Shown piece by piece: positions 8,081-10,381 of a DNA stretch of 64,000 nt (its first letter is position 1; every line of letters starts with the position of its first letter). Source of the DNA: Sphingomicrobium sp. GTDB taxonomy: Bacteria > Pseudomonadota > Alphaproteobacteria > Sphingomonadales > Sphingomonadaceae. Both the position numbers and the translations under genes were made by a program. The notes beneath the pieces were generated by a model, which saw only the letters and a program-made list of their open reading frames with translations, made no database searches and was not told where the DNA came from. Location: NCBI GenBank assembly GCA_040414585.1, contig JBEDUM010000175.1, positions 15,146 through 79,145 of the forward strand, read 5' to 3'.

Positions 8081-8103
8081 GTCAGCCTGCCGCCAAGCGG
8101 ACA
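8081..8103. repeat. decayed TGTCCGCTT...AAGCGGACA palindrome, copy 1
   Basis: GTCAGCCTG-CCGC-CAAGCGGACA; right arm intact, left arm with 2 mismatches. Confidence 0.45.
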
Positions 8104-8120
8104 GGACTGACGTCACGGAT

Positions 8121-8507
8121 TTACTCCGGCTCTCCCCCTATCTCGCTGATCTCTACGAGCTGCGGATAGAAAGCGAGGTGGCCAGCGATCTCGGGGACAG
8201 GCGGGTAGGGGTGCTCGTACGTCCAGACCGCGTTCGCGCCTTTGTCGCCCAGCACGACGACGTGGAAATAAGCGGCGTCGCCTTTGTAGGGGCAATAGCT
8301 CGCGTGATCCGACCGGCGGAGCTGCGTCATGTCGACGCCATCACGCGGAATATACTGGACCGGCGGATAATTCGCTTCCCTGAGTGTTAGGGCGCTGAAC
8401 GTGTCGGCGATCAATGTGTCGCCGGCACGCACTTGGACGCGCCTGGGATTGCGTTCGATCGCAATCGGATGATCCGGTCCGGGCAAAAGAATGGGGCGAC
8501 TGCTCAT
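8121..8507 (-). CDS. DUF427 family protein
   Basis: L.E..YPPVQYIP, SYCPYKGDAAY, AVWTYE.P...I.GH.AFY. Confidence 0.88.
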   Translation of the reverse strand: MSSRPILLPGPDHPIAIERNPRRVQVRAGDTLIADTFSALTLREANYPPVQYIPRDGVDMTQLRRSDHASYCPYKGDAAYFHVVVLGDKGANAVWTYEHPYPPVPEIAGHLAFYPQLVEISEIGGEPE

Positions 8508-8555
8508 GGCGTGTACGTGGGCTCCCCGACGAAGCTTTCAAGCGCTGCAAGCTAG

Positions 8556-8584
8556 TGTCCGCTTTCGACCTTTTGCCGACGGAC
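8556..8584. repeat. decayed TGTCCGCTTT palindrome, copy 2
   Basis: TGTCCGCTTTCGACCTTTTGCCGACGGAC. Confidence 0.55.
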
Positions 8585-8613
8585 GGACTGCTTTTGACGT
8601 GTCACATGCGCCG

Positions 8614-10239
8614 CTACAGCAGCCATTCGATCGGCAAGTGCGACAGTAGCCAGATCCCGGTTCGCTGAAACTGGGTCGTCCCCGGCTCTACCTTGTGGAC
8701 GATCACGCGCCCTTCGCGTCGTTCGATCCAGTTAAGTTTGCCGTCCTTTGACAGCACGACTTCGTAGGCCGTTGCCGGAATGCTATTTTGAAAGGCATCC
8801 GAGACGGCGCTGGCGAGGGCGGGGCTTTGAATGAGGAAGCCGAGCTCGGTGTTCAGATGCATCGAGCGCGGATCGAAGTTGAACGAGCCGATGAAAATCT
8901 TGCGCCGGTCGATTGAGAAGGTCTTGGCGTGAAGTGTCGTAGCCGAAGAGCGCAGGACCGGACCGCTGTCCGATCCCAGCCCACTACCCGAGCCCATGGA
9001 AAATAGGCGCCTGTGGCCCTCGGTTCCGCCGCCGCCGGCACGCATCTCAAACAGGCGAACACCCTTTTCCAGCAGCGGTCGGCGATAATGCGCATAGCCC
9101 GCCTGGACTATCCATACGTCGCTGGCCTCGAAAGCATTGGTGAAGATTGCTGTGTGGACCCCCGCTTCGGACAGTTGGCCGAGAGCGTCCACGCCTGCCT
9201 GCGTCGGCACGAAATAGGCAGAAACCACCTGAAGCTCGGTGCGCGGCCCGCCCATTGCCTGGCGCAGCGCATTGACCATCAGGGCATCTTGATCTCCCTT
9301 GCCGACACCCTTGGCCGGATCATCGCTGATCATTCGCACCGGCGCCCACTCGAAGGGCAGCGTGCGGTCGAGCATGTGGGCCATGAGCGGCACGCGGGCG
9401 ATCGCCTCGACATATTTGCGCGCCGCGGCGTCGCGCTCCACGAGCGAGGCGTGGCCATGAATGGAGTCGGGGACGGGGGCACTCGTCGTGCGCAAGATTC
9501 GCTCCGCCGGATAAGCCGACTGGCTCGACCAGTAACGGTCGAAATCGGTTGATACGGCGTTTACGACCGGGCCGATCGCGAGCGCATCGGCATCCTCGAA
9601 CAAGCGGCCCTCGGTGGCGGAAAAATATTCGTCGCCGATATTGCGCCCACCAATGATTGTGGCCTCGTTGTCGGCGGTGAAGCTCTTGTTATGCATCCGC
9701 CGGTTCAGGCGGGTGAAATCGGTGACGTAGCCAATCGCTTTCGGGTGCCGAATGACAAACGGATTGAACAGCCGGACTTCAATGTTCGGATGGCGGTCGA
9801 GCGCCGCCAGCACGTCGTCCATACCCCCGATTCCGTTGTCGTCGAGTAGCATCCGGACACGAACGCCGCGATCGGCGGCGTCGAGTATCGCTTCCAGCAG
9901 CAGCGTGCCCGACAGGTCCTTGTGCCAGATGTAATACTGCACATCGAGGCTGCGCCTGGCTGTGCGTGCGAGTAGCACGCGAGCAGCGAAAGCGTCGTAG
10001 CCGTCGAGCAGCATGTGCACGCCCGACTCTCCCCCGTGCCCCCGGCGCATCGCTTCGGCTGCCCGGCCGAGCGGAGTGTCTTCCGTGTCGGCGAAATGGC
10101 GCGAGACAGTGCGCGGCTCGAGCGGAGGCAAAGGATTGAGCAGGCGGAGTGCCAACGCGATGGCGGCGAGCACCGCCACTACAAGGCCCAGATACCGCAG
10201 AAGCAGCAACGGCCTCGAACGCTTGCGCTTGGTTCTCAA
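8614..10239 (-). CDS. phospholipase D family protein (ClsC/YmdC-like cardiolipin synthase)
   Basis: two HKD motifs (MHNKSFTAD, LHAKTFSID), N-terminal TM; start uncertain (TTG 10239 chosen, track gives 10356). Confidence 0.9.
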   Translation of the reverse strand: MRTKRKRSRPLLLLRYLGLVVAVLAAIALALRLLNPLPPLEPRTVSRHFADTEDTPLGRAAEAMRRGHGGESGVHMLLDGYDAFAARVLLARTARRSLDVQYYIWHKDLSGTLLLEAILDAADRGVRVRMLLDDNGIGGMDDVLAALDRHPNIEVRLFNPFVIRHPKAIGYVTDFTRLNRRMHNKSFTADNEATIIGGRNIGDEYFSATEGRLFEDADALAIGPVVNAVSTDFDRYWSSQSAYPAERILRTTSAPVPDSIHGHASLVERDAAARKYVEAIARVPLMAHMLDRTLPFEWAPVRMISDDPAKGVGKGDQDALMVNALRQAMGGPRTELQVVSAYFVPTQAGVDALGQLSEAGVHTAIFTNAFEASDVWIVQAGYAHYRRPLLEKGVRLFEMRAGGGGTEGHRRLFSMGSGSGLGSDSGPVLRSSATTLHAKTFSIDRRKIFIGSFNFDPRSMHLNTELGFLIQSPALASAVSDAFQNSIPATAYEVVLSKDGKLNWIERREGRVIVHKVEPGTTQFQRTGIWLLSHLPIEWLL

Positions 10240-10356
10240 CAATTCCACCGTTCCGCGAAGCACCAGCAATATCTGCTGCCTGGTTTGCTGGAATAGCCAT
10301 GCATCGCGCCTCGGAGCCATGGCAAGAAACCCGACGTTCGCTAGAAGCGCATCCAA

Positions 10357-10381
10357 TGTCCGCTTTGCACATGCCGGACGG
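10357..10381. repeat. decayed TGTCCGCTTT palindrome, copy 3
   Basis: TGTCCGCTTTGCACATGCCGGACGG; shares the 10-mer and TGCC..GACGG with copy 2. Confidence 0.55.

What the first reader, a model, noticed from the sequence alone, without database searches (positions are those of the whole stretch)
8081..10381. Single genes bracketed by decayed TGTCCGCTT...AAGCGGACA palindromes: cassette-like array behind the pnp terminator
Seen: three related motifs (8081-8103, 8556-8584, 10357-10381) lie only in intergenic DNA and delimit exactly one gene each (DUF427; PLD). Copies 2 and 3 share TGTCCGCTTT and TGCC..GACGG in direct orientation. I recall this short palindrome, which translates as MSAFDP/MSAL-type pseudo-ORFs, from alphaproteobacterial accessory DNA, but cannot verify that here. 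Inference: these are recombination or insertion scars of an attC-like gene-cassette acquisition system whose recombinase lies outside the window. The copies are short and degenerate, so chance is not excluded.
Basis: partly seen in the sequence, partly recalled or inferred. Interest (0 to 1): 0.62.

Follow-up and report, generated by a model that had tools for sequence, protein, structure and literature searches.

The report
Cassette-site remnants around inserted PLD gene
Two of the three motifs are worn copies of a 34-bp DNA site that, across the soil genus Sphingomicrobium, brackets single swappable genes in long one-directional arrays meeting at a tiny recombinase gene; this looks like an integron-like gene-collecting system in a bacterial class reported to lack integrons, and here it marks one inserted phospholipase-D gene.

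Summary
The motif is real and non-random: 4 exact 9-mers in the window against 0.5 expected. Only motifs 2 (8551-8586) and 3 (10353-10378) belong to a repeat family. Motif 1 is a unique, unrelated hairpin.

The family is a ~34-bp unit, GCTARTGTCNGC-TTTCSACCCAWW-GCNGACAYTAGC.
- It has about 94-130 copies in this Sphingomicrobium MAG and occurs in 71 of 81 genomes of the genus.
- Copies are almost all intergenic, clustered, and co-oriented (48 of 51 adjacent pairs).
- In complete genomes nearly every gene in 10-35-kb arrays is bracketed by units.
- Array content differs completely between species at a conserved hotspot.

The PLD gene between units 2 and 3 is unique among the 81 genomes. Two close relatives have pnp-terminator-DUF427 with no PLD and no unit. 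The closest PLD homologue (83% aa) lies elsewhere between intact units in the same relative orientation.

The two arms of the unit assort independently, so it is a lox/dif-like duplex site, not an attC-like hairpin. No IntI or RAYT is present. A ~210-aa catalytic-domain-only tyrosine recombinase sits where opposed arrays converge in all 10 loci checked in relatives. It is absent from this assembly.

Verdict: a fossil single cassette of an apparently undescribed integron-like system. Recombinase activity is inferred, not shown.

The parts
8551..8586 (+). Unit 2. A near-complete family unit, CTAGTGTCCGCTTTCGACCttTTGCcGAC. It differs from the consensus in the centre and right arm, and its outer right arm has decayed. 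It lies between the PLD stop and the DUF427 start.
   Evidence: nhmmer gives 23.9 bits, E = 1.2e-6 window-wide and E = 5.5e-5 genome-wide. It aligns position for position with the intact unit downstream of PLD in L131.
10353..10378 (+). Unit 3. A decayed family unit, AATGTCCGCTTTGCAC--ATGCCGGAC, with a 2-nt deletion in the central block. It lies between the pnp terminator and the PLD start.
   Evidence: nhmmer gives 11.7 bits, E about 0.01 window-wide. It aligns with the intact unit upstream of PLD in L131. It no longer folds.
8556..10382 (-). The inserted segment relative to the two relatives: unit 3, the PLD gene and unit 2, 1827 bp in all.
   Evidence: Junction alignment with L001 and L097. 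Flanks..TTGAGCAGGCC | insert | CTAGCTTGCAGCGCTTGAAAGC.. in the window, against ..GCGCAGCAGCC|CTCAATTCGGTACCGCTTGAAAGG.. in L097.
8614..10320 (-). Cargo gene: a phospholipase D / ClsC-like protein of 568 aa with two PLDc_2 domains and an N-terminal membrane anchor.
   Evidence: Pfam PF13091 at 4.4e-29. It is unique among 81 Sphingomicrobium genomes. Homologues at 78-83% aa identity lie in four other genomic contexts, one of them between intact units.
8121..8507 (-). DUF427 gene. It is the resident neighbour of the insertion and is not itself bracketed by family units.
   Evidence: Pfam PF04248 at 1e-30. It is present in 3 of 81 genomes of the genus. It follows the pnp terminator directly in L001 and L097.
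8081..8111 (.). Motif 1: the hairpin GTCAGCCTGCCGC-CAA-GCGGACAGGACTGAC. It is single-copy and not a family member. It sits where synteny with relatives ends, just after DUF427.
   Evidence: 0.0 bits against the family profile. It has no other copy in the genome. Folding gives -12.4 kcal/mol, z = -3.9. Sequence after DUF427 differs in L001 and L097.
10420..10455 (-). Intrinsic terminator of pnp (GGCCCCGCAGCGATGCGGGGCC followed by a T-run on the minus strand). It forms the upstream flank of the insertion.
   Evidence: Read directly from the sequence. It is conserved in L001 and L097.
7727..7996 (-). Small secreted His-rich protein of 89 aa. A paralogue lies inside a unit-bracketed cassette elsewhere in this genome (C178:8365-8743).
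   Evidence: BLASTP gives 55% identity, E = 7e-17. The C178 cassette is bounded by units at 8339 and 8744.

Best explanation
**What the motifs are.** Units 2 and 3 are decayed copies of a ~34-bp duplex recombination site. The site has two ~12-bp inverted arms, GCTARTGTCNGC and GCNGACAYTAGC, around an asymmetric, highly conserved centre, TTTCSACCCAWW.

**What the family does.** In the genus Sphingomicrobium these sites bound single-gene cassettes. The cassettes are stacked in co-oriented arrays at chromosomal hotspots.

**Inferred mechanism.**
- A dedicated small tyrosine recombinase of about 205-230 aa, with a catalytic domain only, binds the arms.
- It exchanges strands in the asymmetric centre.
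- Two direct sites then excise a circle carrying one hybrid site plus a gene.
- A circle can integrate at any resident site, which recreates direct repeats.
- Arrays grow outwards from both sides of the recombinase gene. That gene is flanked by inverted sites, so it cannot excise itself.

**In this window.** One such cassette, carrying a phospholipase-D/ClsC-like gene, was placed between the pnp terminator and DUF427. Its two sites have since mutated; unit 3 has lost 2 nt of the centre. The assembly contains no copy of the recombinase. The cassette is therefore probably a fixed fossil.

**Shown versus inferred.** Shown here: the family, its arrays, the hotspot turnover, cassettes shared between genomes with boundaries inside units, the empty site, independent assortment of the arms, and the position of the recombinase gene. 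Inferred: that this recombinase acts on the units, where it cuts, and that circles exist.
For: **Family and arrays in this genome.**
- 52 exact 9-mers and about 94-133 profile hits.
- 91 of 94 are intergenic.
- 51 adjacent pairs lie within 3 kb, against 12 +/- 2.9 expected.
- 48 of 51 adjacent pairs are co-oriented, p = 2e-11.
- 32 of 51 inter-unit segments hold one ORF filling more than 70% of the segment.

**Distribution in the genus.**
- 71 of 81 genomes carry the unit; the reversed-pattern control finds 0.
- Complete genomes have arrays of 20-30+ co-oriented units.

**Hotspot turnover.** Between plsX-rpmF and the MBL-hydrolase gene, the flanks are conserved but the 6.1-kb array here and the 8.4-kb array in G200 share no homology. 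The nearest relative, G123, has no units there.

**Cassette mobility.**
- Own C115:25117-25957 is 90% identical to G175:C108 in another neighbourhood. Homology starts in one unit's centre and ends in the next unit.
- A 2.6-kb block is shared at 91% between the G200 hotspot and a G176 array.
- Homology-block ends are enriched at units: 29 against 8.7 +/- 3.1 expected.

**PLD as a cassette.**
- Unique among 81 genomes.
- Empty site in L097 (pnp 98% aa identity) and in L001.
- The closest homologue, on L131, is flanked by intact units in the same relative orientation but with different neighbours.

**Duplex site, not a hairpin.** Mutual information between the arms is 0.05 bit. 57% of arm positions pair, against 48% in the null. 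Two thirds of units carry ATT, which breaks the inner palindrome.

**Recombinase.**
- The PF00589 protein of about 210 aa sits where a + array meets a - array in 10 of 10 loci from 9 genomes.
- In G200 the recombinase module, bounded by inverted units, is present twice at 91% identity.
- Genomes with it have a median of 23 units against 5 (p = 6e-4). All 11 have at least 5 units, against 37 of 70 others (p = 0.002).
- At class level, 6 of 13 unit-bearing genomes have the recombinase family, against 15 of 388 without units (p = 1.3e-5).
Against: - The recombinase is absent from this assembly (91% complete). It is also absent from G183, which is 100% complete and holds 31+ units in long arrays, and from about half of the unit-rich genomes.
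- The co-occurrence tests are not corrected for phylogeny or for MAG incompleteness.
- The relatives' empty site contains no unit. Simple circle-into-site integration therefore needs an unseen intermediate (a solo unit) or another route: transposon-like movement of unit-gene-unit, or homologous replacement.
- The 12-bp centre is longer than the 6-8-bp overlap regions of characterised tyrosine recombinases (my background knowledge).
- The enzyme lacks a core-binding domain, so how it would read 12-bp arms is unclear.
- About 14 unit doublets with no gene between them, some sharing the junction GCTGACTCTAG-CGRA-GYGTCTGC, are not predicted by the model.
- Gene orientation inside cassettes is random (17 same, 15 opposite).
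- No excised circles or population polymorphism were seen. Only low-depth contigs were available.
Confidence: 0.6

Rival explanations
1. The units are REP/MITE-like selfish palindromes. They multiply by transposition in trans and pile up in dispensable DNA. Gene turnover at arrays then results from ordinary homologous or illegitimate recombination between these abundant repeats, not from a dedicated site-specific system.
For: - The units are short, intergenic and near-palindromic, and the consensus folds as a strong ssDNA hairpin (-12.7 to -15 kcal/mol).
- Copy number varies widely: 0 to 63 between species, and 44 against 0 between this genome and its nearest relative.
- Tandem doublets are frequent.
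- Arrays exist in genomes that lack the small recombinase.
- The PLD insert carries two units, while the empty site has none.
Against: - No RAYT/Y1 transposase is present (PF01797, 0 hits).
- 48 of 51 neighbouring units are co-oriented over many kb, independent of gene orientation and of GC skew.
- There are no compensatory changes between the arms.
- The most conserved part is the asymmetric centre, not the stem.
- The recombinase gene sits at array convergence points in 10 of 10 loci.
Confidence: 0.2
2. The units are Xer-dependent sites. Host XerC/XerD move the modules, as proposed for the pdif modules of Acinetobacter plasmids. The small recombinase would be only another cargo or an element that targets the sites.
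For: - The site geometry, inverted arms around a short asymmetric centre, fits.
- G183, with long arrays, encodes only XerC, XerD and one 399-aa integrase.
- This genome has XerC/D-like genes on C100 and C149 and no small recombinase.
- pdif modules show that housekeeping Xer can shuffle gene modules (PMC6449649, PMC13141974).
Against: - The units carry none of the ATAA...TTAT signature of proteobacterial dif (my background knowledge). No dif-like site could be located in this genome for comparison.
- Modules here are flanked by direct sites.
- The location is chromosomal and the family is genus-specific with lineage-specific centres. That fits a dedicated, co-evolving enzyme better than the conserved Xer pair.
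- Statistical and positional linkage to the small recombinase.
Confidence: 0.1
3. The units are regulatory or RNA elements, such as operators of a DNA-binding protein, terminators or mRNA stabilisers, that happen to be common between accessory genes.
For: - The units are intergenic and enriched between convergent genes (27 observed against about 14 expected by length).
- Units 2 and 3 lie in the 5' regions of DUF427 and PLD.
Against: - Unit orientation is unrelated to gene orientation (17:15).
- There is no covariation, no T-run, and no Rfam match.
- This reading does not explain array turnover, shared cassettes bounded by units, or the recombinase linkage.
Confidence: 0.04

Closest known systems
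Integrons and CALIN arrays (IntI, attI, attC cassettes), especially sedentary chromosomal integrons
   Same: - Arrays consist mostly of single-gene, promoter-poor accessory cassettes, each bounded by a repeated imperfect palindrome, all in one orientation.
- Array content differs completely between relatives at a fixed locus.
- A tyrosine recombinase gene sits at the array origin.
   Different: - No integron integrase is present (TIGR02249 over cut-off in 0 of 12 genomes).
- The sites are 34 bp. Their sequence is conserved rather than their structure, and the arms do not covary.
- The crossover appears central, not at one end.
- Gene orientation is random.
- Two opposed arrays converge on the recombinase gene.
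- The recombinase is about 210 aa and lacks a core-binding domain.
- The host class was reported devoid of integrons, In0 and CALIN (PMC4889954).
pdif / dif modules of Acinetobacter plasmids (XerC/XerD)
   Same: - Short duplex sites with inverted arms and a small centre bracket discrete gene modules.
- The same modules are found in different contexts (PMC6449649, PMC13141974).
   Different: - The location is chromosomal.
- The sites are direct rather than alternating.
- There is no visible resemblance to dif.
- A dedicated small recombinase is linked to the arrays.
- The arrays are much longer, with 20-30+ sites.
REP/REPIN elements with RAYT transposases
   Same: - A genus-specific short palindromic intergenic repeat with tens to hundreds of copies.
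- The associated enzyme gene is flanked by two repeats in inverted orientation.
   Different: - The enzyme is a phage-integrase-family tyrosine recombinase, not an HUH Y1 transposase (PF01797 absent).
- There is no hairpin covariation.
- Repeats form co-oriented arrays that bound swappable genes.
FimB/FimE-type DNA invertases and Cre-loxP-type simple sites
   Same: - The recombinase is about 200 aa with a catalytic domain only. It gives a weak NCBIfam hit to 'tyrosine-type DNA invertase' and Xer families.
- The closest solved relatives are XerD and XerH.
- The 34-bp site has inverted arms and an asymmetric centre that gives it direction, as in loxP.
   Different: - There are many sites per genome instead of one pair.
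- Direct-repeat arrays imply excision and integration rather than a single inversion switch.
- No fimbrial or phase-variable promoter context is present.

Membership tests
Integron / CALIN | Integron integrase (IntI) with its characteristic extra domain | tested here: not met
   TIGR02249 is over its cut-off in 0 of 12 genomes, including this one and the array-rich complete genomes. Only partial Xer-like matches appear.
Integron / CALIN | attC sites: 57-141 bp, structure conserved while sequence varies, with paired R''/L''-L'/R' boxes | tested here: not met
   The units are about 34 bp with a conserved sequence. Arm-to-arm mutual information is 0.05 bit, and 57% of positions pair against 48% in the null.
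Integron / CALIN | Co-oriented array of mostly single-gene cassettes whose content varies between relatives | tested here: met
   Cassettes shared in different contexts.
Integron / CALIN | Cassette ORFs mostly co-oriented and read from a platform promoter | tested here: not met
   ORF strand relative to unit strand: 17 same, 15 opposite.
pdif / Xer modules | Sites resemble the host dif site (XerC arm, 6-bp centre, XerD arm) | tested here: inconclusive
   No dif-like sequence could be found in the genome with a dif consensus (up to 8 mismatches) or with CATAA-N6-8-TTATG. A direct comparison was therefore impossible. The unit consensus lacks the ATAA/TTAT signature.
pdif / Xer modules | Modules bounded by sites in alternating (inverted) orientation, on plasmids | tested here: not met
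   48 of 51 neighbouring units are direct. The arrays lie between chromosomal core genes such as plsX-rpmF and pnp.
REP / RAYT | A RAYT (Y1 HUH transposase) gene in the genome, flanked by inverted REPs | tested here: not met
   PF01797 gives 0 hits in this genome, while the controls give hits.
REP / RAYT | Hairpin maintained by compensatory substitutions | tested here: not met
   Two thirds of units carry ATT opposite TTT.
FimB/FimE-like minimal tyrosine recombinases (for the linked enzyme in relatives) | About 200 aa, catalytic domain only, with R..K..HxxR..H..Y | tested here: met
   PF00589 covers residues 41-192 of 207. The boxes LRGCDL, QRKTGR, HSMRRT, GHT and VRY are read from the sequence.
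FimB/FimE-like minimal tyrosine recombinases (for the linked enzyme in relatives) | Acts on a pair of inverted repeats to invert a segment | not testable with these tools
   The gene is flanked by inverted units. No inverted alleles were seen.
The unit family itself (window copies) | Match to the family profile, including the central TTTCSACCCAWW block | tested here: met
   Met for unit 2 (23.9 bits) and unit 3 (11.7 bits). Not met for motif 1 (0.0 bits).

The most novel reading that the evidence does not exclude
Sphingomicrobium, and patchily other Alphaproteobacteria with sister site types whose centres are TGACCC or TAGCCA, carry a gene-capture platform analogous to an integron but built from different parts.
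- The enzyme is a ~210-aa catalytic-domain-only tyrosine recombinase.
- It acts on 34-bp lox-like duplex sites.
- It builds two opposed cassette arrays around its own gene and seeds further arrays at chromosomal hotspots.

This would fill the gap left by the reported absence of integrons from this class.
Probability: 0.45. Interest if true: 0.85.

Novelty: new variant of a known kind. Interest (0 to 1): 0.7.

Why it matters
**The open question.** Integrons are the textbook example of a gene-cassette platform. Their complete absence from 243 alphaproteobacterial genomes was called 'extremely puzzling' (PMC4889954).

**What was found.** A genus-wide array system with its own short duplex site and a minimal recombinase would be an independent solution to the same problem. 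The recombinase family has thousands of uncharacterised homologues in metagenomes.

**Why it would be useful.**
- It would explain much of the accessory-genome turnover in a common soil genus.
- It would explain why these regions fragment in MAG assemblies.
- It would add a compact recombinase and 34-bp site pair to the recombination toolbox.

**For annotation.** The 'MSAFDP...'-type pseudo-ORFs are read-throughs of these sites, not genes.

Tried and rejected
- **Literature search by sequence.** The 10-mers returned only unrelated primer hits. Four keyword searches found integron and pdif work but nothing on this repeat or on Sphingomonad arrays.
- **Rfam.** Nothing relevant was found in the window stretch or in four arrays.
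- **Replication-strand explanation for co-orientation.** Unit strand against local GC skew showed no clear link: 32/31 and 22/9. In complete genomes the polarity blocks do not follow replichores.
- **Integrases in this genome.** There are four PF00589 hits: two Xer-like, one 606-aa frame and one truncated fragment on C107. None lies on an array contig. The C107 fragment is unrelated to the array-linked recombinase.
- **Public reads.** Only low-depth Logan contigs were available. The PLD-bearing allele occurs in several soil samples. No empty-site or circle junctions were seen.
- **Extra decayed units at other gene boundaries (window 4700-10700).** Only a 4.9-bit half-unit candidate at 7553-7574 appeared, and it is not significant.
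- **Locating dif for comparison.** This failed.
- **Using homology-block ends to place the crossover.** The ends pile up at the outer edge of units, because units resemble one another. Only two junctions inspected by eye place the crossover near the centre.
- **Recombinase homologues in other alphaproteobacterial families.** Unit-like sites lie downstream of the gene in some (for example G550 and G444). The pattern search was too loose to be convincing.
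Full report
**1. What is in the window**

All genes discussed here run on the minus strand, in this order:
- rpsO (13018-13287);
- pnp (10499-12856);
- the pnp intrinsic terminator (about 10420-10455);
- a PLD/ClsC-like gene (8614-10320; PLDc_2 at 4e-29);
- DUF427 (8121-8507; 1e-30);
- a small secreted His-rich protein (7727-7996);
- DUF4136 (7020-7547).

The exact 9-mer TGTCCGCTT occurs 4 times, against 0.5 expected, and none of 100 shuffles reaches 4. 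Three of the copies are at the reported places, and all three are intergenic.

**2. The motif belongs to a genome-wide family, and only two of the three copies are members**

The window lies on contig C175 of a 2.84-Mb, 191-contig, 62.5% GC genome. Its pnp is 94-98% identical in protein sequence to pnp of Sphingomicrobium MAGs.

Genome-wide, the 9-mer hits resolve into a repeat of about 34-38 bp. A profile built from clean copies finds 94 copies at E <= 0.01 and 133 at E <= 1.

From 321 copies in this genome and its relatives, the unit reads:
- left arm GCTARTGTCNGC;
- centre TTTCSACCCAWW;
- right arm GCNGACAYTAGC.

In the window only two copies are significant:
- unit 2 (8551-8586): 23.9 bits, E = 1e-6;
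- unit 3 (10353-10378): 11.7 bits, E = 0.01.

Motif 1 scores 0.0 bits. It is a different object: a single-copy 13-bp-stem hairpin (-12.4 kcal/mol, z = -3.9). It sits where synteny with relatives ends.

**3. How the family is arranged**

In this genome:
- 91 of 94 copies are intergenic.
- 51 neighbouring pairs lie within 3 kb, against 12 +/- 2.9 for random intergenic placement.
- 48 of 51 neighbouring pairs point the same way (p = 2e-11).
- Between consecutive units 150-2600 bp apart, 32 of 51 segments hold one ORF filling more than 70% of the segment.
- ORF direction is unrelated to unit direction (17 same, 15 opposite).

Cargo is ordinary accessory material: OsmC-like and PitA-like proteins, DUF1254/DUF1214, PEP-CTERM proteins, a TIR-TPR protein, and many unknowns (where most assignments were made by eye). 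Segment GC is 52-62%, at or below the genome mean.

Several contigs end in a unit. The arrays are therefore probably under-assembled.

**4. Distribution**

- The core pattern GCTTTCSACCCAWWGC occurs in 71 of 81 Sphingomicrobium genomes, at 0-63 copies. The reversed-pattern control finds 0 everywhere.
- It occurs in only 10 of 121 other Sphingomonadaceae genomes, at 1-4 copies.
- A looser arm pattern finds sister families with other centres (TGACCC, TAGCCA) in a few other alphaproteobacterial families (13 of 401 genomes).

Complete genomes show arrays in which almost every gene is bracketed:
- about 20 units, all in one direction, over 15 kb in G183;
- more than 30 units over 30 kb in G180;
- blocks of opposite polarity that meet in G193 and G200.

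**5. Evidence that the units bound mobile cassettes**

(a) A conserved hotspot with unrelated content. Between fabH-plsX-rpmF and an MBL-hydrolase/dipeptidase pair, this genome has a 6.1-kb array and G200 has an 8.4-kb array. The two arrays share no detectable homology, although the flanks are 60-90% identical. The nearest relative, G123, has one unrelated gene and no unit there.

(b) One cassette in two contexts. The 841-bp cassette C115:25117-25957 is 90% identical to G175:C108:2849-3688, which has different neighbours. Homology begins inside the centre of one unit (..GCTTTCG|ACCCATTGCGGACG..). It ends after the left arm and centre of the next unit.

(c) Larger shared blocks.
- A 2.6-kb block is shared at 91% between the G200 hotspot and a G176 array.
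- The recombinase module of G200 occurs twice at 91% identity, running from unit to unit.
- Overall, homology-block ends fall within 20 bp of a unit 29 times, against 8.7 +/- 3.1 expected.

**6. The PLD gene in the window is such a cassette**

- PLD has no homologue at E <= 1e-20 in the other 80 genomes of the genus.
- Two relatives have pnp, terminator and DUF427 directly adjacent: L097 (G123, pnp 98% identical) and L001.
- Aligning the junctions places the insertion at window 8556-10382. It begins with unit 3 and ends with unit 2, which are direct repeats.
- The closest PLD homologue (83% aa, 79.7% nt) lies on L131 (GCA_046730955.1). There it sits between two intact units in the same orientation relative to the gene. 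Its neighbours are different: a sigma-54 activator fragment and MarC.
- The window's units align position for position with the L131 units. Unit 3 has a 2-nt deletion in its centre.
- Other 78-80% homologues sit in three further contexts without units.
- DUF427 is present in only 3 of 81 genomes. In the relatives it has no flanking units, so it is not delimited as a cassette by this family.
- The small His-rich gene next to DUF427 has a 55%-identical paralogue inside a unit-bracketed cassette on C178. This hints that older, unit-less cassettes may lie in this stretch, but that is not shown.

**7. What kind of site the unit is**

The consensus can fold as ssDNA (-12.7 to -15 kcal/mol). The population of copies, however, shows no selection for pairing:
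- At the polymorphic arm position (-1/16), mutual information is 0.05 bit and pairing is 57% against 48% in the null.
- Dependencies within an arm are larger (0.12-0.14 bit).
- Two thirds of copies carry ATT opposite TTT.
- The best-conserved part is the asymmetric centre.

This pattern is expected of a duplex recombination site whose half-sites are reassorted by crossovers in a common centre. It is not expected of attC or REP hairpins.

No integron integrase exists in 12 genomes tested. No RAYT is present here. There is no Rfam match.

**8. The candidate enzyme**

Scanning complete relatives for PF00589 turned up a 205-230-aa protein consisting of the catalytic domain alone.
- PF00589 covers residues 41-192 of 207.
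- NCBIfam gives only weak Xer and invertase hits.
- The closest solved structures are XerD and XerH, at E about 1e-5.
- The R, K, HxxR, H and Y boxes are visible in the sequence.

Members at least 63% identical to the G193 protein occur in 11 of the 81 genomes. Ten loci from nine of those genomes were fetched, eight of them without regard to units. In all ten the gene sits exactly where a + array on one side meets a - array on the other, with units pointing towards it.

Co-occurrence statistics:
- Carriers have a median of 23 units against 5 (p = 6e-4).
- All 11 carriers have at least 5 units, against 37 of 70 non-carriers (p = 0.002).
- Across 401 alphaproteobacterial genomes, 6 of 13 unit-bearing genomes have the recombinase family, against 15 of 388 without units (p = 1.3e-5).
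- These tests are not phylogenetically corrected.

The family has more than 8000 homologues in metagenomes. Sources name them only 'tyrosine-type recombinase/integrase'.

Earlier AI notes of this scan describe similar minimal-recombinase modules with their own flanking sites in other taxa. I treat those notes as leads that agree with this reading, not as support.

**9. Weak points**

- The enzyme is missing from this assembly and from G183, which is 100% complete and has long arrays.
- The empty sites hold no unit. How unit-PLD-unit arrived is therefore open: a prior solo unit, movement as a unit-gene-unit block, or replacement by homologous recombination.
- Gene-less unit doublets with a recurrent junction are unexplained.
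- A 12-bp centre and a recombinase without a core-binding domain are unusual.
- No circles or polymorphic alleles were seen.

**10. Comparison with known systems and verdict**

Functionally the system resembles integrons and pdif modules. It fails the defining tests of both, and of REP/RAYT (see the membership table). The literature I could search describes nothing like it in Sphingomonads. The reference survey found no integrons, In0 or CALIN in 243 Alphaproteobacteria (PMC4889954).

In the window itself the feature is modest: one fossil cassette with two decayed sites. It is, however, a valid entry point to what looks like a new variant of a cassette platform.

My confidence is about 0.6 that the units are site-specific recombination sites bounding mobile cassettes, and about 0.5 that the small recombinase is their enzyme.

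Noticed in passing
window 7727-7996 (-) and G000:C178:8365-8743: The small secreted His-rich protein next to DUF427 is 55% identical (E = 7e-17) to a protein encoded in a unit-bracketed cassette on another contig. The stretch downstream of DUF427 may therefore be older cassette DNA that has lost its sites.
   Followed up: partly
window 8081-8111: Motif 1 is a unique 13-bp-stem hairpin with two bulged T. It lies 10 nt after the DUF427 stop, exactly where synteny with L001 and L097 ends. No T-run follows it, and its function is unknown.
   Followed up: partly
G000 contigs C19:2659-2719, C3:4085-4152, C34:18895-18960, C99:937-1006, C47, C64: Units often occur as head-to-tail doublets 0-12 bp apart with no gene between them. 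Many share the junction GCTGACTCTAG-CGRA-GYGTCTGC, which suggests a composite ~72-bp element. The cassette model does not explain this.
   Followed up: no
L087:13947-14000, L110, L111, L085, L112, L117 (upstream of the recombinase start codon): A conserved palindrome, CTCCAGC-N3-5-GCTGGAG, overlaps the ribosome-binding site of the small recombinase gene. It may be an autoregulatory operator or a translation-blocking hairpin.
   Followed up: no
L085:6558-8911 and L117:3467-5822 (G200); L112 (G176): In G200 and G176 the recombinase travels in a 2.35-kb module with an SRAP (YedK-like) peptidase gene and a small ORF. The module is bounded by inverted units and is present twice in G200 at 91% identity.
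   Followed up: partly
L082:6790-8526 (G200:C1:1332789-1334525): A large serine recombinase of 578 aa (XisF/Ccr-like) lies immediately beside another unit array.
   Followed up: no
window 10499-10740 (3' end of pnp): pnp encodes a ~75-residue Arg/Gly/Asp-rich C-terminal tail (785 aa in total). The tail is also present in L001 and L097. It is unusual for PNPase.
   Followed up: no
G123 against G000 (whole genomes): The nearest relative sampled (pnp 98% aa identical) has 0 exact-pattern units, against 44 here. Either turnover is very fast or arrays are lost during binning.
   Followed up: no
G550, G291, G299, G250, G422 (other alphaproteobacterial families): Sister units keep the same arms (GTCYGCTTT...AAAGCRGAC) but have different centres (TGACCC, TAGCCA). 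Two centre types can occur in one genome.
   Followed up: partly
L118:4134-4942, L126, L119, L120: A second subgroup of the small recombinase (53-60% identity) forms a discrete ~0.8-kb module. It is 80-86% identical between species, lies in different contexts and is mostly away from units. It carries unit-like GCTTTCCACC sequence upstream and a perfect GGTGGGCTGG/CCAGCCCACC hairpin downstream.
   Followed up: partly
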